Assembly (NCBI GenBank): GCA_964503625.1
Contig: CAZDAU010000002.1
Span: 32,768 to 96,767 of the forward strand
Direction of reading: 5' to 3'
From: an uncultured Anaerolinea sp.
GTDB lineage: Bacteria; Chloroflexota; Anaerolineae; Anaerolineales; UBA4823
DNA: 64,000 nt
In this document: one piece after another, positions 1-62,728 of the stretch
Numbering within the stretch: position 1 is the stretch's first letter
How the letters are laid out: every line of letters begins with the position of its first letter
The notes under the pieces: generated by a model
Seen by the model: only the letters and a program-made list of their open reading frames with translations
Databases searched by the model: none
Told to the model about the DNA's origin: nothing
Translations under genes and position numbers: made by a program

Positions 1-969
1 CTGCGCATCCCGGCGGGCCGGCGCTCGCTTTACAAGGCCAGCCTTGTAGAAATGCTTTGCTATGTTGTTGCGAGCATCTGGTACGGAATGCGATCTTTGC
101 GCACATGGCGACCGGATGTCATCCATGTCCATTTTGCTGTCCCGACTGGGCCAGCCGCCTGGGTGCTCTCCCGGCTTAGCGGCATCCCCTATGTATTGAC
201 GGTTCATCTGGGCGATGTCCCGGGTGGCGTGCCGGATAAGACGGCTCGTTGGTTTCGCTGGGTTTACCCATTTACGCCTGCGATCTGGCGTGATGCTGCC
301 CGGGTGGTGGCGGTCAGCAACCACACGCGCCAACTGGCGTTGCAACACTATCCGGTGGATATCCAGGTGATTCACAACGGTGTGGATCGAGGGCATCTTG
401 ATCCGGGTGAGTTGCACCTGAACCAGCCAGCCCGAATTTTTTTTGCCGGGCGGTTTGTGACTCAGAAGAATCCGCTGCAAATTATTGCCACATTGGCGGC
501 TGTGAAAGACCTGGAATGGGATTGCGTGTTGGTGGGGGACGGCCCTTTGCGTGAAAAGATGATTGAGCATATTCGGGCTGCCGGGTTGGAGAACCGCGTC
601 CAGTTGCCCGGTTGGATCACACCGGATAAAGTTATCCATTGGATGCGCACCAGCGATATCCTGTTCATGCCTTCAATATCAGAAGGCCTGCCGGTGATGG
701 GTGTGCAGTCTCTGGCAATGGGCCTGGCAATCATCGCCACACACTTGGGGGGATTCATCGATCTGGTGGACGAAGGAATCAATGGCTATCTGATCGATGT
801 TAACCGGCCGGAAGGTTATGCGCGCGCCCTGCGGGAGCTGCTCTCAAATCCTGACAAACTGCTACGCGCTCGCCAGGCCAGCTATGCCAAAGCTGAGGAT
901 TTCGATTTGCAGGCCATTGTCTGTACTTACCAGGATTTATTTGTTGGGGTGAAGCGGGGCAGAGGTTAA
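1..969 (+). CDS. Glycosyltransferase, GT4/group-1 family (5' end truncated by window edge)
   Basis: Frame 1 is open from nt 1 (LRIPAGRRSLYKASLVEM...) into the 52..969 ORF. It has a GT-B group-1 look: VIHVHFAVPTGPAAWVLSRLSGIPYVLTVHLGDV in the N-domain and SDILFMPSISEGLPVMGVQSLAMGLAIIATHLGGFIDLVDEGINGYL in the donor-binding C-domain. Confidence 0.85.
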   Translation: MRIPAGRRSLYKASLVEMLCYVVASIWYGMRSLRTWRPDVIHVHFAVPTGPAAWVLSRLSGIPYVLTVHLGDVPGGVPDKTARWFRWVYPFTPAIWRDAARVVAVSNHTRQLALQHYPVDIQVIHNGVDRGHLDPGELHLNQPARIFFAGRFVTQKNPLQIIATLAAVKDLEWDCVLVGDGPLREKMIEHIRAAGLENRVQLPGWITPDKVIHWMRTSDILFMPSISEGLPVMGVQSLAMGLAIIATHLGGFIDLVDEGINGYLIDVNRPEGYARALRELLSNPDKLLRARQASYAKAEDFDLQAIVCTYQDLFVGVKRGRG

Positions 970-970
970 G

Positions 971-61476: not shown

Positions 61477-61483
61477 TCAAGCC

Positions 61484-62728
61484 TTGTCTACTCCACGCGT
61501 GCTGGCTGTTCTTCCTGGCTTCATGCCCTCAACCTTAATGTACATCATCAAACCCTTCATTGGCTTAGAAGCTGAAGGGCGGATATGTTTTCGCCTCGCG
61601 CTGGAGGCTTATTTGAACCTTGCTCAAATCCGCTGGGCAGACCTGGTTGTGTTTTGCCGCAATGTTGAGCCGCGTTACCACTACATTTTAGATTACATCC
61701 TGGAACAGAAGTTGCCGTTTATCTATGATATCGACGATAACCTGTTCCTGGTGCCCGAGCAAGTTGAAGATGGTGAATATTACCGCCAACCGGAGCGCAT
61801 CGCCCAGCTTGAAAAATATTTGCGCGCTGCAAGTTTGGTGCGCGTTTATTCGCGACCGTTGCGCGAGCAAGCGCAGCGCTATAACCCCGAAGTGCGCCAG
61901 GTAGACCCCGTCTTGGATTGGAAGCTGATCCATACCGTGGAAAAAACCGCACAGGATCGGACGGTTCGTCTGGTTTATGCCACCAGCCGCAAGGATGATT
62001 ATTTGTTCCCCATTTTCACCGATTCTCTGCGCCGCTTGCTGAGGGAATACCCCGACAAAACCGAAATGCACTTTTTGGGCTTCCAGCCATCCGGTTTTCA
62101 GGGGTTTGCCAATGTTCATTACAGCAAATTCAACCCGAACTACGACCAATTTATGCGCCGGTTTTCCAGCATGGGCTTTGATATCGGTCTAGCTCCAATG
62201 CTAGATGATGATTTTCATCGTTCAAAGACTAATACCAAGTTTCGCGAATACGGTGCTTGTGGCATTGCTGGTATTTACTCGAAAGTTGATCTATATGCCT
62301 CATGTGTGAAGGATGGTGAGACCGGCCTGCTGGTTGAAAATCAGCCTGATGACTGGTATCAGGCGATGGTCAGGCTGGTCGAGGATTCGAGATTGCGCGC
62401 ATGCATCGGTAGTGCTGCCCGGGGTGAAATCCAAAGGCTCTACTCACAGGAGCGCTTCCAGGAAGTTTGGTGGCAGCAAATTAAGGACGTTCTTGAGAAT
62501 CCTGGTTACCGGGAAAATGGTGTGTCTGAAAACCTGGTTAGGCTGCAGTCAAAGATTGATCCGGAGACGCAATCCGTGCCGTCGATTCTGACCATCTGGT
62601 ACACAAAACTGCTCAGAGGGCTGCAGCTTTTAAGGGCGGGAAACCTCCGCCGGTCGGTGACTAATGGTCGTGTCCATTTATCAAATCTATGGTGGCTGTT
62701 TAAGATCAATTACTTGAGACGCGTGTGA
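61484..62728 (+). CDS. Putative GT-B glycosyltransferase (paralog pair, member 2)
   Basis: FIYDIDDNLF, FDIGLAPM, NTKFREYGA and DGETGLLVEN. Noticeably AT-richer than the rest of the locus. Confidence 0.6.
   Translation: MSTPRVLAVLPGFMPSTLMYIIKPFIGLEAEGRICFRLALEAYLNLAQIRWADLVVFCRNVEPRYHYILDYILEQKLPFIYDIDDNLFLVPEQVEDGEYYRQPERIAQLEKYLRAASLVRVYSRPLREQAQRYNPEVRQVDPVLDWKLIHTVEKTAQDRTVRLVYATSRKDDYLFPIFTDSLRRLLREYPDKTEMHFLGFQPSGFQGFANVHYSKFNPNYDQFMRRFSSMGFDIGLAPMLDDDFHRSKTNTKFREYGACGIAGIYSKVDLYASCVKDGETGLLVENQPDDWYQAMVRLVEDSRLRACIGSAARGEIQRLYSQERFQEVWWQQIKDVLENPGYRENGVSENLVRLQSKIDPETQSVPSILTIWYTKLLRGLQLLRAGNLRRSVTNGRVHLSNLWWLFKINYLRRV

What the first reader, a model, noticed from the sequence alone, without database searches (positions are those of the whole stretch)
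1..62728. About 62.7 kb single-strand glycan supercluster lacking a recognisable initiating phosphoglycosyltransferase, Wzx, Wzy or PCP/OPX
Seen in sequence:
- Every credible gene from nt 1 to 62728 is on the plus strand.
- At least ten junctions are 4-nt overlaps: 3091, 9800, 12359, 16703, 21553, 29774, 43591, 55687, 57509 and 60403.
- The largest spacer is 244 nt.
- I recognise no WbaP/WecA-type initiating transferase, Wzx flippase, Wzy polymerase, chain-length regulator or outer-membrane export protein.

Inference: assembly is ABC-transporter dependent. Initiation either occurs on a primer made elsewhere or on a glycerolipid, as in KpsS/KpsC systems. The four GT-C-like proteins then decorate the polymer outside the membrane.
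Basis: partly seen in the sequence, partly recalled or inferred. Interest (0 to 1): 0.55.

Follow-up and report, generated by a model that had tools for sequence, protein, structure and literature searches.

The report
Anaerolineae cell-surface glycan gene island
This is one strand-block of a roughly 90-kb sugar-polymer island in an uncultured Anaerolineales (Chloroflexota) bacterium; the missing "initiator/flippase/polymerase" genes are ordinary for its ABC-transporter pathway, but a 12-gene operon inside it is conserved across the whole class and may build the unknown outer layer of these bacteria.

Summary
Observation: confirmed. 55 plus-strand genes fill 97.8% of nt 1-62728. There are 11 four-nt overlaps and the largest spacer is 244 nt. 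No WecA/WbaP, Wzx, Wzy, PCP or OPX domain was found.

Interpretation: partly supported.
- There are two Wzm/Wzt exporters.
- The source is an Anaerolineales bacterium. The phylum is regarded as lacking an outer membrane, so PCP/OPX are not expected. Unlinked initiators are normal for ABC-dependent pathways.

The "supercluster" is composite:
- A GT2/GT4/flippase-like/GT-C set (to 6.0 kb).
- An operon conserved across Anaerolineae (6.05 to 18.4-22.5 kb; 77 species genomes) with its own conserved promoter and palindromic operator: MarR, Wzm, Wzt with a carbohydrate-binding domain, a KpsC-like transferase plus methyltransferase, PseB, NeuB and a CMP-transferase.
- An accessory block not seen in the other species' loci (reach +10 kb), for sulfation and ulosonic acids (22.6-46.4 kb).
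- A second exporter with a rhamnan module (46.4-62.7 kb).

The island continues on both flanks, and it is not an assembly chimera.

No initiator motif occurs in 1.59 Mb of related loci, so KpsS/C-like lipid priming stays open but unproven.

Interest is moderate.

The parts
1..969 (+). GT4 glycosyltransferase, 5' end cut by the window (full gene 378 aa)
   Evidence: Pfam Glycos_transf_1 and Glyco_transf_4. Full-length gene on L001 8863-9999.
971..3094 (+). GT-C fold glycosyltransferase, 707 aa, about 13 TM helices, invariant D127 in an 'IFDDY' loop
   Evidence: No Pfam, NCBIfam or PDB sequence hit. AF2 pLDDT 86.8. Foldseek hits STT3 1e-5, AftA 1e-4, DPY19. Family alignment A1.
3035..3053 (+). 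Second copy of the promoter -10 box plus palindromic operator motif, TATAATTCAACGACTGAAT, 38 nt before the flippase-like gene
   Evidence: Exact match; 0.03 expected by chance.
3091..4077 (+). Flippase-like membrane protein (LPG_synthase_TM / TIGR00374)
   Evidence: Pfam 101 bits; NCBIfam TIGR00374 54.3 bits, above its 43.2 cutoff.
4106..5980 (+). GT-C fold glycosyltransferase, 624 aa
   Evidence: AF2 pLDDT 88.1. Foldseek hits AftA 7.5e-6, STT3, ArnT. No sequence-level hits.
6052..6092 (+). Sigma-70-like promoter TTGACC-16-TATAAT fused to the palindrome TTCAACGGCTGAA. Conserved across the class upstream of the MarR gene.
   Evidence: Best promoter match in the window, 11 of 12. Full promoter in 44 of 64 relatives. 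67 of 80 motif sites lie upstream of MarR homologs.
6100..6612 (+). MarR/winged-helix regulator; first gene of the conserved core operon
   Evidence: Pfam HTH_24 and MarR_2. Present in 63 of 64 related loci.
6605..7555 (+). GDP-L-fucose-synthase-like epimerase/reductase
   Evidence: Pfam Epimerase. NCBIfam Fcl 295 bits, below its cutoff.
7552..8442 (+). Wzm-1, ABC-2 permease
   Evidence: Pfam ABC2_membrane. Present in 68 of 68 related loci.
8442..9803 (+). Wzt-1, ABC ATPase with a C-terminal carbohydrate-binding domain
   Evidence: Pfam ABC_tran plus Wzt_C at 34.8 bits, above the 30.4 cutoff. All 77 homologs keep the C-terminal region.
9800..11455 (+). KpsC-like CMP-ulosonic-acid glycosyltransferase, 551 aa, with invariant NxxxD-S and HP motifs; candidate chain terminator or primer
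   Evidence: Pfam Capsule_synth 20.2 bits. Paralog of the 561-aa protein, E 7e-21. Family alignment A4. 263 species genomes, all Chloroflexota.
11457..12362 (+). SAM methyltransferase paired with the 551-aa enzyme
   Evidence: Pfam Methyltransf_11. A natural fusion of both proteins exists, P0449.
12359..13357 (+). PseB, UDP-GlcNAc 4,6-dehydratase (inverting)
   Evidence: NCBIfam equivalog 493.7 bits, above the 407.75 cutoff.
13393..14358 (+). RmlD-like 4-reductase
   Evidence: Pfam RmlD_sub_bind.
14434..15501 (+). NeuB-family ulosonic acid synthase 1
   Evidence: Pfam NeuB plus SAF. NCBIfam hits below cutoffs.
15549..16706 (+). GT4 glycosyltransferase of the core operon
   Evidence: Pfam. Present in 53 of 54 related loci.
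16703..17521 (+). CMP-sugar synthetase 1 (CTP_transf_3; closest to KdsB-type models). The start may be 16742.
17527..18438 (+). Conserved protein of unknown function, 303 aa; last gene of the strictly conserved core
   Evidence: No Pfam, NCBIfam or PDB hit. Present in 42 of 48 related loci.
18441..19451 (+). GT2 glycosyltransferase
   Evidence: Pfam. Present in 32 of 47 related loci.
19454..21556 (+). Two sulfotransferases (19454-20476 and 20522-21556)
   Evidence: Pfam Sulfotransfer_3 and Sulfotransfer_1.
21553..22539 (+). GFO/IDH/MocA oxidoreductase
   Evidence: Pfam.
22608..24389 (+). Bifunctional PAPS synthase (ATP sulfurylase plus APS kinase)
   Evidence: Pfam, 280 and 215 bits.
24477..28099 (+). 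Second ulosonic-acid pathway: SDR, PseF-like CMP-transferase (25365-26102), NeuB fused to a xylose-isomerase-like TIM barrel (26147-28099)
28092..29777 (+). KpsC-like / BFO_1060-like ulosonic-acid transferase, 561 aa
   Evidence: Pfam Capsule_synth 43.5 bits. PDB KpsC 6mgc, E 0.002, with aligned NxxxD-S and HP motifs. NCBIfam BFO_1060, E 8e-11.
29774..30745 (+). Methyltransferase paired with the 561-aa enzyme
   Evidence: Pfam.
30762..32214 (+).
   Evidence: PP-binding 29.9 bits. NCBIfam PRK07080 177 bits. Independent gene calls.
32254..35132 (+). GNAT, AAC(3)-like N-acetyltransferase, and a DUF4910/M28-like protein
   Evidence: Pfam.
35154..38485 (+). Sulfotransferase, methyltransferase, sulfotransferase, GT2
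   Evidence: Pfam. The two sulfotransferase genes share a 66-nt repeat.
38579..41983 (+). Third CMP-transferase, D-2-hydroxyacid dehydrogenase, SDR, and an MptE/Maf-like protein
   Evidence: Pfam; NCBIfam.
41990..43594 (+). GT-C glycosyltransferase (PMT_2)
   Evidence: Pfam PMT_2 36.3 bits, above the 26.1 cutoff.
43591..46416 (+). GT2, sulfotransferase, GT2
   Evidence: Pfam.
46427..48053 (+). Second exporter: Wzm-2 and Wzt-2 (no carbohydrate-binding domain)
   Evidence: Pfam. NCBIfam galactan/teichoic-acid-type Wzt, 213 bits.
48057..50966 (+). Membrane-anchored GH78-like (alpha-L-rhamnosidase six-hairpin) protein
   Evidence: Pfam Bac_rhamnosid6H 117 bits. One N-terminal TM helix.
51002..52480 (+). 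Unknown protein with a single N-terminal TM helix, 492 aa
   Evidence: No Pfam or NCBIfam hit.
52480..53952 (+). AftB-like GT-C glycosyltransferase, 490 aa, with a YDDPF motif
   Evidence: Profile A3 against PDB hits AftB 9dlf, E 4.2e-10. Colinear over its full length with more than 100 homologs.
54010..57512 (+). rmlC, rmlB, rmlA, rmlD (dTDP-L-rhamnose synthesis)
   Evidence: Pfam, 237-313 bits.
57509..60406 (+). Three-domain methyltransferase-GT2-GT4 protein, 965 aa; candidate rhamnan polymerase/capper
   Evidence: Pfam; PDB hits.
60403..62728 (+). Two GT4-like glycosyltransferases (60403-61476 and 61538-62728)
   Evidence: Pfam, weak; independent gene calls.
62825..64000 (-). End of the strand block: minus-strand carrier protein (62825-63079) and AMP-binding ligase (63104 onward, runs off the window)
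   Evidence: Independent gene calls on L003. Pfam AMP-binding.

Best explanation
The window is one strand-block of a cell-envelope glycan island of roughly 90 kb in an uncultured Anaerolineales (Chloroflexota) bacterium. It is several adjacent modules, not one system.

Module A (from 1.1 kb upstream of the window to 6.0 kb). A GtrB/Ppm1-like GT2 would make a polyprenol-phosphate sugar. A flippase-like PF03706 protein would move it outward. Two GT-C enzymes would use it outside the membrane. A GT4 also belongs to this set.

Module B (6.05 to 18.4 kb, extending to 22.5 kb). This operon is conserved across the class Anaerolineae and is driven by a conserved promoter/operator and a MarR-type regulator. 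Soluble GT4, GT2 and KpsC-like transferases would build a glycan on a lipid carrier at the cytoplasmic face. Its precursors would be a PseB-derived 6-deoxy-amino sugar, a fucose-type sugar and a NeuB-made, CMP-activated ulosonic acid, and the glycan would be sulfated. The KpsC-like enzyme and its partner methyltransferase would add a terminal cap. The carbohydrate-binding domain of Wzt-1 would recognise the cap, and Wzm/Wzt-1 would then export the chain.

Module C (22.6-46.4 kb). This block was not seen in the other species' loci, which reach only about 10 kb past the 551-aa gene. It supplies PAPS, three more sulfotransferases, a second and a third CMP-activated acid pathway each with its own transferase, acyl/aminoacyl decoration genes, and another GT-C/GT2 pair.

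Module D (46.4-62.7 kb). A second Wzm/Wzt exporter without a binding domain, rmlCBAD, a methyltransferase-GT2-GT4 polymerase-like enzyme, an AftB-like GT-C and a GH78-like protein would make and finish an L-rhamnose-rich polymer.

Initiation is most likely by an unlinked WecA/TagO-type enzyme. PCP/OPX are absent because there is no outer membrane to cross.

Shown: gene content, protein folds, synteny, promoter conservation. Inferred: sugar identities, cap recognition, the roles of the GT-C enzymes, the initiator.
For: Organism. Homologs are named Anaerolineales or Chloroflexota.

Exporters. Two ABC-2/ABC pairs; only the first carries Wzt_C.

GT-C enzymes. All four are assigned to the GT-C fold.

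Lipid-linked donor genes. The GT2 directly upstream has two C-terminal TM helices. The PF03706 protein matches the flippase-like model.

Conserved core. A colinear core from MarR to the 303-aa unknown is present in 88-100% of eligible loci from 77 species genomes, at 57-79% median identity. None of the 80 loci matches a window gene beyond 22.5 kb, apart from one sulfotransferase hit; they reach only about 10 kb past the 551-aa gene.

Regulation. The promoter plus palindrome is conserved upstream of MarR.

Cap hypothesis.
- The 551-aa gene always follows Wzt-1, and every Wzt-1 homolog keeps its binding domain.
- A natural fusion of the 551-aa enzyme with the methyltransferase exists.
- HP and NxxxD-S motifs align to the KpsC catalytic motifs (PMC10148158).
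- There is weak similarity to the Tannerella pseudaminic/legionaminic acid transferase family (PMC5420450).

Precursor genes. PseB at equivalog level. PAPS synthase and five sulfotransferases. rmlCBAD.

Known precedents. ABC export followed by GT-C elaboration outside the membrane occurs in mycobacterial arabinogalactan and in three-component O-antigen systems (PMC10951656, PMC13018209, PMC11127046).
Against: - No initiating phosphoglycosyltransferase was found. It is absent from the window and from about 9 kb upstream and 10 kb downstream of the same genome. It is absent from the upstream 10 kb of a 70%-identical relative. No motif match occurs in 1.59 Mb of 94 related loci. The 'unlinked initiator' is therefore assumed, not seen.
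- The rest of the source genome could not be searched.
- The link from the 551-aa family to KpsC is indirect: direct profile E is 0.48, and the link runs through its paralog.
- The classical Pse/Leg pathway is incomplete. No aminotransferase or NeuC/PseG-type enzyme was found, so the ulosonic acid is unidentified.
- There is no experimental data on any Anaerolineae surface glycan.
- Whether the modules make one polymer or several is unknown.
Confidence: 0.6

Rival explanations
1. Lipid-primed lipoglycan, working like KpsS/KpsC. The conserved 551-aa enzyme would transfer a CMP-activated ulosonic acid onto a membrane glycerolipid. That would create the primer on which the glycan is built. After ABC export the product would stay anchored in the cytoplasmic membrane, like lipoteichoic acid or lipoarabinomannan. 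No polyprenol-phosphate initiator would be needed.
For: - No phosphoglycosyltransferase domain or motif in the window, its flanks, or 94 related loci totalling 1.59 Mb.
- The 551-aa family is the most tightly exporter-linked transferase. It is more conserved than the GT-C proteins: 58% median identity against 42-48%.
- Pfam Capsule_synth hits and aligned HP and Asp-Ser motifs relative to KpsC.
Against: - Wzt-1 carries a carbohydrate-binding domain. In studied systems this domain reads a non-reducing-end cap, and Kps transporters lack it (established knowledge of E. coli O9a and Klebsiella O12).
- The family's invariant QxxxD is NxxxD here (PMC10148158).
- Only the C-terminal, CMP-binding half resembles KpsC.
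- No KdsA; the linked synthases are NeuB-type.
- A second, paralogous enzyme-plus-methyltransferase pair sits far from any exporter. That fits a decorating or capping role.
Confidence: 0.2
2. Protein (S-layer or sheath) glycosylation system. The ABC-exported, polyprenol-linked glycan would be transferred as a block onto a surface protein by one of the STT3-like GT-C enzymes, which would act as an oligosaccharyltransferase rather than as a decorating enzyme.
For: - The top fold hits of the 707-aa protein are STT3 subunits of oligosaccharyltransferase.
- No LCP-type ligase or Wzy_C/WaaL-type ligase is present to attach the polymer elsewhere.
- Precedent from own knowledge: ABC-dependent, rhamnan-type S-layer glycans with methylated caps in Geobacillus, and a multidomain WsaE-like enzyme that resembles the protein at 57509-60406.
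Against: - Fold scores are equally good for AftA, DPY19 and ArnT, with TM-scores of 0.33-0.41.
- No WWDxG-type motif appears among the invariant columns.
- A polyprenol-phosphate-sugar synthase and a flippase-like gene sit next to the GT-C genes. That is the signature of single-sugar transfer.
- No candidate acceptor protein lies in the island.
Confidence: 0.12
3. Artefact. The 62.7-kb block would be an assembly or binning chimera that joins unrelated glycan loci.
For: - At least four independent assemblies break at about 53.64-53.71 kb. No independent contig spans those 26-58 nt.
- Two assemblies also start a contig at 13188.
Against: - Independent contigs from four JGI samples and one Logan run match the window at 99.3-100% identity. 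They cover 1-13354, 12608-44207, 13188-53675 and 53702-64000.
- The gene across the unspanned gap is in frame. Its product is colinear from residue 18 to 487 with more than 100 homologs.
- SNPs against the 99.3% strain are spread evenly.
- GC content is uniform at 0.53-0.61.
- Both breakpoints fall in very conserved coding stretches, which is a common cause of assembly-graph breaks in mixed populations.
Confidence: 0.03

Closest known systems
ABC-transporter-dependent O-antigen assembly with a cap-reading Wzt (E. coli O9a WbdD; Klebsiella O12 / Raoultella WbbB beta-Kdo terminator)
   Same: A Wzm permease and a Wzt ATPase with a C-terminal Wzt_C domain. The genes directly after Wzt encode a KpsC/WbbB-superfamily-like CMP-ulosonic-acid transferase and a methyltransferase; ulosonic acid and methyl groups are the two known kinds of chain cap. 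The initiator gene is unlinked.
   Different: The host belongs to a phylum regarded as lacking an outer membrane and LPS. The transferase has NxxxD in place of QxxxD. It is linked to NeuB-type rather than Kdo-type sugar synthesis. The cluster is conserved across a whole class rather than being serotype-variable. Capping and cap binding have not been tested.
Mycobacterial arabinogalactan pathway (WecA elsewhere; cytoplasmic galactan; Wzm-Wzt export; AftA/AftB/Emb GT-C enzymes that use decaprenyl-phosphate arabinose)
   Same: The logic is the same: cytoplasmic polymer, ABC export, then extracytoplasmic GT-C glycosylation from polyprenol-phosphate sugars. Three of the four GT-C proteins hit AftA or AftB; for two of them that is the best match, and the 707-aa protein scores STT3 slightly higher. 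Wzt-2 scores best against the galactan-export Wzt model. The initiator is unlinked.
   Different: No galactofuranose or arabinose precursor genes, and no LCP ligase in the island. The sugars here are rhamnose, 6-deoxy-amino sugars, ulosonic acids and sulfate. Sequence identity to the mycobacterial enzymes is only 12-13%.
Group 2 capsule Kps system (KpsMT, KpsS/KpsC poly-Kdo glycolipid primer, KpsED)
   Same: An ABC-2 exporter, PF05159 (Capsule_synth) proteins with an HP motif and an aligned nucleophile Asp, and no polyprenol-phosphate initiator in the locus.
   Different: No KpsE/KpsD (PCP/OPX) and no KdsA. NxxxD in place of the invariant QxxxD. The enzymes have a single module of about 550 aa and an unrelated N-terminal half. 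The exporter's Wzt carries a binding domain that KpsT lacks.
Three-component extracytoplasmic glycosylation (GtrA/B/C; CsbB-YfhO; GT136 systems, PMC11127046)
   Same: A GT2 with C-terminal TM helices, a small multi-TM putative flippase, and GT-C enzymes that are adjacent and partly overlap each other.
   Different: The putative flippase is of the PF03706 (MprF N-terminal) type, not GtrA or MATE. Two GT-C genes share one GT2. The gene order is permuted between relatives.
Gram-positive rhamnose-rich wall or S-layer glycans (streptococcal Rgp/Gac clusters; Geobacillus slg cluster with WsaE)
   Same: rmlABCD, Wzm/Wzt without a binding domain, a multidomain methyltransferase-GT-GT enzyme, and an extra GT-C for side-chain addition. 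In several of these systems the initiator is unlinked.
   Different: A GH78-like membrane protein and an unknown 492-aa protein are inserted here. No LCP or O-oligosaccharyltransferase is present. This comparison rests on recalled domain architectures, not on sequence tests.

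Membership tests
ABC-transporter-dependent (Wzm/Wzt) glycan pathway | ABC-2 permease plus ABC ATPase encoded together inside a glycan locus | tested here: met
   Two pairs, 7552-9803 and 46427-48053. Pfam ABC2_membrane and ABC_tran; NCBIfam teichoic-acid/galactan export models.
ABC-transporter-dependent (Wzm/Wzt) glycan pathway | For the cap-dependent subtype: a Wzt C-terminal carbohydrate-binding domain plus a chain-terminating enzyme | tested here: inconclusive
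   Wzt_C is present on pair 1 (34.8 bits against a 30.4 cutoff) and is kept in 77 of 77 homologs. The terminator role of the 551-aa enzyme plus methyltransferase is inferred only from position and from a natural fusion.
ABC-transporter-dependent (Wzm/Wzt) glycan pathway | Initiation by a WecA/TagO-type polyprenol-phosphate GlcNAc-1-P transferase | not testable with these tools
   None in the window, its flanks or 94 related loci. The rest of the source genome could not be searched.
Wzx/Wzy-dependent pathway | Wzx flippase, Wzy polymerase and a PCP chain-length regulator | tested here: not met
   No Polysacc_synt, Wzy_C or Wzz hits. The candidate membrane proteins have the GT-C fold, and WaaL scores only E of 0.4 or worse.
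Group 2 capsule KpsS/KpsC retaining beta-Kdo transferases (GT107/GT99) | Invariant QxxxD motif with a nucleophile Asp | tested here: not met
   The aligned motif is NVVYD-TS in the 561-aa protein and the invariant N331-x3-D335-S336 in the 551-aa family. The Asp is conserved but the Gln is replaced by Asn (PMC10148158).
Group 2 capsule KpsS/KpsC retaining beta-Kdo transferases (GT107/GT99) | HP motif and a PF05159 domain | tested here: met
   H372-P373 are invariant. 'RAHPDE' aligns to the KpsC 'VHPD'. Pfam 43.5 and 20.2 bits against a cutoff of 20.
Group 2 capsule Kps system | KpsE/KpsD (PCP-3/OPX) and CMP-Kdo supply (KdsA/KdsB) | tested here: not met
   No Poly_export, Wzz or DAHP_synth_1 hits. 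The only linked sugar genes of this kind are CTP_transf_3 and NeuB-type synthases.
GT-C glycosyltransferase superfamily | Polytopic membrane protein with the GT-C fold and an acidic motif in the first outer loop | tested here: met
   971-3094 and 4106-5980: Foldseek probability 1.00 to STT3, AftA, ArnT and DPY19, with an invariant D127. 41990-43594: PMT_2. 52480-53952: AftB, E 4e-10, with invariant D41 and D42 conserved in at least 90% of members.
Three-component extracytoplasmic glycosylation system | Polyprenol-phosphate-sugar synthase GT2 with C-terminal TM helices, a flippase, and a GT-C enzyme | tested here: inconclusive
   A GT2 with two C-terminal TM helices lies at window -1134 to -178, and GT-C enzymes are present. 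The 'flippase' is a PF03706/TIGR00374 protein whose role as a lipid-sugar flippase is only an annotation.
Pseudaminic acid pathway (PseB, C, H, G, I, F) | All six enzymes | tested here: not met
   PseB passes its equivalog cutoff. NeuB and PseF-like proteins fall below their cutoffs. No aminotransferase (PseC) or PseG-type hydrolase was found.
dTDP-L-rhamnose pathway | RmlA, RmlB, RmlC and RmlD | tested here: met
   54010-57512, with Pfam scores of 237-313 bits for each.
PAPS-dependent glycan sulfation | ATP sulfurylase plus APS kinase, together with sulfotransferases | tested here: met
   The fused PAPS synthase at 22608-24389 and five sulfotransferase genes. The substrates are unknown.

The most novel reading that the evidence does not exclude
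The operon conserved across Anaerolineae (window 6.05-18.4 kb) would encode the still-unidentified outer envelope layer of these bacteria, which are regarded as lacking an outer membrane. The product would be a sulfated, ulosonic-acid-bearing glycan. It would be primed on a membrane glycerolipid by a new NxxxD clade of KpsC-like double-displacement transferases. That would be a capsule-type glycolipid pathway operating without polyprenol initiation, Wzx/Wzy or outer-membrane export, under a dedicated MarR-type operator.
Probability: 0.15. Interest if true: 0.7.

Novelty: new variant of a known kind. Interest (0 to 1): 0.42.

Why it matters
Chloroflexota stain Gram-negative. They lack BAM and LPS genes, and the identity of their outer envelope layers is unknown (PMC13319060).

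The 12-gene export operon found here has strong marks of a core envelope function:
- It is present in every eligible locus of 77 Anaerolineae species genomes.
- It has its own conserved promoter and operator.
- Its exporter carries a carbohydrate-binding domain.
- It encodes an uncharacterised clade of KpsC-like transferases.

This gives a concrete, testable candidate for such a layer. Cultured relatives such as Anaerolinea thermophila appear to carry it; two of the fetched loci are MAGs labelled with that species.

It would also extend cap-and-export chain-length control, and the retaining ulosonic-acid transferase superfamily, beyond Gram-negative pathogens.

Tried and rejected
- Sequence searches of the 707-aa and 624-aa proteins found nothing useful in Pfam, NCBIfam or PDB, as single sequences or as profiles. 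Only structure prediction plus Foldseek resolved them.
- hhalign of the 490-aa family against the 624-aa family gave no relationship, probability 1.7%.
- The direct profile of the 551-aa family against PDB gave only a marginal KpsC hit, E 0.48.
- The 303-aa conserved unknown had no PDB, Pfam or NCBIfam hit. The 492-aa unknown had no Pfam or NCBIfam hit.
- Exact-protein look-ups failed for 61484-62728, 41990-43594 and 52480-53952, probably because of different start calls or genes cut at contig ends.
- The metagenome scan did not return the source contig, only 43-70% relatives.
- The source genome is not a GTDB species representative; the best match is 80% identical. A genome-wide search for WecA/WbaP was therefore impossible.
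- No internal repeats explain the recurrent assembly breakpoints.
- No Rfam family and no tRNA in the window.
- Promoter-like and terminator-like sites do not exceed shuffled controls, apart from the site at 6052.
- My early idea that the conserved module ends at the RmlD-like gene, based on one MAG (L007), was rejected after the 80-locus synteny analysis.
- Literature searches found nothing on Anaerolineae ulosonic acids or on this cluster.

Full report
**1. Observation**

ORF listing and start-codon inspection give 55 consecutive plus-strand genes. They cover 97.8% of nt 1-62728. 50 of them have a Pfam hit, and four of the five without one were assigned here by fold, profile or NCBIfam.

The eight longest minus-strand ORFs have no Pfam hit. 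Independent JGI and Logan gene calls on identical DNA show no minus-strand gene within the block.

All ten listed 4-nt overlaps exist, and there is an eleventh at 7552. Nine of the ten are confirmed by independent gene calls. At 16703 the callers chose ATG 16742 instead. In total 19 of 54 junctions overlap, the median spacer is 4 nt, and the largest is 244 nt at 33581-33824.

No ORF hits Bac_transf, Glycos_transf_4, Polysacc_synt, Wzy_C, Wzz or Poly_export.

Corrections to the observation:
- The first gene is cut by the window edge.
- The strand run starts about 1.13 kb upstream, with a GT2.
- The spacer at 30746-30921 contains a missed 83-aa carrier-protein gene.
- The block ends where a minus-strand carrier-protein/AMP-ligase pair begins, at 62825.

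**2. Source and integrity**

Homologs of three proteins are named Anaerolineales or Chloroflexota. All 80 fetched genome loci are Chloroflexota, mostly labelled Anaerolineae, Anaerolineales or Anaerolineaceae.

Contigs from four JGI samples and one Logan run match the window at 99.3-100% identity. They cover 1-13354, 12608-44207, 13188-53643/53675 and 53702-64000.

At least four assemblies break at about 53.64-53.71 kb, and no independent contig spans that gap. However, the gene across the gap (52480-53952) is in frame. Its product aligns from residue 18 to 487 with full-length homologs: 12,581 hits in all, 744 of them below 1e-30.

Further points against a chimera:
- SNPs against a 99.3%-identical strain are evenly spread.
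- GC content is uniform.
- No internal repeats exist at the breakpoints.

I conclude that the block is not a chimera. The recurrent breaks fall in very conserved coding stretches (the end of pseB, and the 'LEIGVIGYYAG...DFAGL' motif). They could reflect assembly-graph tangles among co-occurring relatives or strain-level cassette variation. This is unresolved.

**3. The unassigned membrane proteins**

The 707-aa (971-3094) and 624-aa (4106-5980) proteins have no sequence-level hits.

AlphaFold2 models built on 33 and 36 homologs reach pLDDT 86.8 and 88.1. Foldseek against the PDB returns only GT-C enzymes at probability 1.00:
- STT3, 1e-5.
- AftA, 7.5e-6 to 1e-4.
- DPY19.
- ArnT.

WaaL scores E of 0.4 or worse, and transporters score E of 0.17 or worse.

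The other two candidates:
- 41990-43594 is PMT_2.
- The family profile of 52480-53952 hits mycobacterial AftB at E 4.2e-10. D41 is invariant and D42 is conserved in at least 90% of members, in a 'YDDPF' motif.

The stated refutation test, that one of them would be Wzx, Wzy or an initiator, fails.

Context supports extracytoplasmic glycosylation. The GT2 just upstream of the window has two C-terminal TM helices, as in GtrB/Ppm1. The protein at 3091-4077 passes the NCBIfam 'flippase-like domain' cutoff.

**4. The block is composite**

A scan of 185,579 species genomes with the 551-aa family found 263 genomes, and the 80 loci fetched were all Chloroflexota. tblastn mapping of all window proteins onto those 80 loci shows a colinear core in this order:

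MarR, (Gmd-like, absent from the window), Fcl-like, Wzm, Wzt with binding domain, 551-aa enzyme, methyltransferase, PseB, RmlD-like, NeuB, GT4, CMP-transferase, 303-aa unknown.

Conservation figures:
- The core is present in 88-100% of eligible loci at 57-79% median identity.
- GT2a is present in 68% of eligible loci and the first sulfotransferase in 24%. Homologs of the second sulfotransferase and the GFO oxidoreductase follow in a minority of loci.
- The upstream flippase-like and GT-C genes are present in 19-49% of loci, and their order is permuted.
- No locus shows homologs of window genes beyond 22.5 kb, apart from one sulfotransferase hit. The loci reach only about 10 kb past the 551-aa gene, so this is weak evidence that the rest is absent from those species.

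The strongest promoter match in the window lies in the 119-nt spacer before the MarR gene: TTGACC-16-TATAAT, 11 of 12, at 6052-6079. Its -10 box is fused to a palindrome, TATAATTCAACGGCTGAAT. This promoter is found in 44 of 64 relatives. Across 80 loci, 67 of 80 motif sites lie upstream of MarR homologs. A second exact copy sits at 3035-3053, before the flippase-like gene; 0.03 are expected by chance.

This marks an autonomous, probably MarR-autoregulated operon. It also suggests that the flippase-like/GT-C pair is co-regulated with it.

**5. Content of the modules**

Core operon:
- PseB at equivalog level, 493.7 bits.
- An RmlD-like reductase.
- A NeuB-family synthase and a KdsB-like CMP-transferase, both below family cutoffs.
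- A GT4 and a GT2.
- Two sulfotransferases.

Accessory block, 22.6-46.4 kb:
- A fused PAPS synthase.
- A second NeuB, fused to a xylose-isomerase-like barrel, with a PseF-like CMP-transferase.
- A 561-aa paralog of the 551-aa enzyme, again followed by a methyltransferase.
- A carrier protein with an amino acid-[carrier protein] ligase-like enzyme (177 bits).
- A GNAT, an AAC(3)-like acetyltransferase and an M28-like protein.
- Two more sulfotransferases.
- A third CMP-transferase with a 2-hydroxyacid dehydrogenase, an SDR and an MptE/Maf-like protein.
- A GT-C/GT2 pair and a fifth sulfotransferase.

Right-hand module, 46.4-62.7 kb:
- Wzm/Wzt without a binding domain.
- A membrane-anchored GH78-like protein.
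- An unknown 492-aa protein.
- The AftB-like GT-C.
- rmlCBAD.
- A 965-aa methyltransferase-GT2-GT4 protein.
- Two GT4-like proteins.

**6. The KpsC-like enzymes**

The 551-aa and 561-aa proteins are paralogs: 25% identity, E 7e-21.

The 561-aa protein matches the following:
- Pfam Capsule_synth, 43.5 bits.
- PDB KpsC, E 0.002.
- NCBIfam BFO_1060, E 8e-11. BFO_1060 belongs to the Tannerella pseudaminic/legionaminic acid transferases (PMC5420450).

The KpsC alignment places 'NVVYD-TS' on KpsC's 'QTFND160-MS', and 'HPD' on the HP motif. In the 551-aa family N331, D335, S336, H372 and P373 are invariant.

KpsC and WbbB use that Asp as a nucleophile, and QxxxD is described as invariant in them (PMC10148158). 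These proteins therefore work like the family, as CMP-ulosonic-acid-dependent transferases that probably use double displacement. They fail one of its defining motifs and are best seen as a distinct clade.

Their role is inferred from position:
- The 551-aa gene always follows a Wzt that carries a binding domain.
- It is fused to its methyltransferase in one metagenomic protein. That protein comes from a single contig, so the fusion needs confirming.

This matches the cap-and-export logic of E. coli O9a and Klebsiella O12. I favour a chain-terminating methylated ulosonic-acid cap, at about 0.4. A lipid-priming role like that of KpsS cannot be excluded, at about 0.2.

**7. Initiation**

No phosphoglycosyltransferase was found in any of these places:
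- The window.
- About 9 kb upstream and 10 kb downstream of the same genome.
- The further-upstream 10 kb of a 70-76%-identical relative. There the island seems to end at a uracil-DNA glycosylase gene.
- 1.59 Mb of window plus 94 loci, searched with MraY/WecA and Bac_transf signature motifs. This motif search rests on my own knowledge of the signatures and is less sensitive than an HMM.

An unlinked WecA/TagO-type gene is the usual arrangement for ABC-dependent polymers. I take it as most likely, but it was not observed.

**8. Comparison and verdict**

The logic of cytoplasmic synthesis, ABC export and GT-C elaboration from polyprenol-phosphate sugars is that of two known systems: mycobacterial arabinogalactan (PMC10951656, PMC13018209) and three-component O-antigen modification (PMC11127046).

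The absence of PCP/OPX follows from the envelope of Chloroflexota, which are generally considered to lack an outer membrane. The composition of their outer layers is unknown (PMC13319060).

The finding as framed is therefore largely ordinary. What is new is the operon conserved across the class, with its promoter/operator and its NxxxD KpsC-like clade. I found no literature on it.

Scores:
- Novelty: new variant of a known kind.
- Interest: 0.42.
- Confidence in the composite ABC-dependent reading: 0.6.

Noticed in passing
window 6052-6092 and 3035-3053; 65 of the 80 related loci L015-L094: A sigma-70-like promoter is fused to a palindrome (TATAATTCA-N4-CTGAAT). It is conserved across the class Anaerolineae upstream of the MarR-like gene. 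A second exact copy lies inside the 3' end of the GT-C 707 gene, just before the flippase-like gene. It is probably a MarR operator.
   Followed up: yes
window 30762-33580, and minus strand 62825-64000: An 83-aa carrier protein overlaps an amino acid-[carrier protein] ligase-like gene (SerRS-like class II fold). A GNAT and an AAC(3)-like N-acetyltransferase follow. A separate minus-strand carrier protein plus AMP-binding ligase pair closes the block. Together these suggest aminoacyl or acyl decoration of an amino sugar or ulosonic acid.
   Followed up: partly
window 26147-28099: A NeuB-family synthase is fused to a xylose-isomerase-like TIM barrel (AP_endonuc_2), which is an unusual architecture. 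The classical aminotransferase and NeuC/PseG steps are missing, so the nine-carbon acid that is made is unclear.
   Followed up: no
window about 13188-13354, 44207 and 53643-53713: Independent metagenome assemblies from several samples end or start contigs at the same places. Two samples yield a 40.4-40.5 kb contig that spans 13188 to 53643 or 53675. No repeats explain this. Either conserved stretches tangle the assembly graph, or the central 40 kb is a strain-variable cassette.
   Followed up: partly
window 48057-52480: A membrane-anchored GH78-like (alpha-L-rhamnosidase six-hairpin) protein and an unknown 492-aa single-TM protein sit between the second exporter and the rml genes. They may trim or remodel the rhamnan outside the cell.
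   Followed up: no
window 17527-18438: A 303-aa protein with no Pfam, NCBIfam or PDB hit is part of the strictly conserved core operon. It is present in 42 of 48 related loci at 57% median identity.
   Followed up: partly
31 of the related loci L015-L094, for example L068 1741-2778: These loci carry an extra 345-aa NAD-dependent epimerase/dehydratase between MarR and the Fcl-like gene, which the window lacks. A PIG-L-type deacetylase (17 loci), another methyltransferase (18 loci) and several further GT-C families recur next to the core.
   Followed up: partly
window 35708-35773 and 37230-37295: A 66-nt direct repeat (73% identity) marks two paralogous sulfotransferase genes, which are separated by a methyltransferase gene.
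   Followed up: no
window 62775-63425, plus strand: Two plus-strand ORFs of 106 and 109 aa have no Pfam hit. They overlap the independently called minus-strand carrier-protein and ligase genes, so they are probably not genes.
   Followed up: partly
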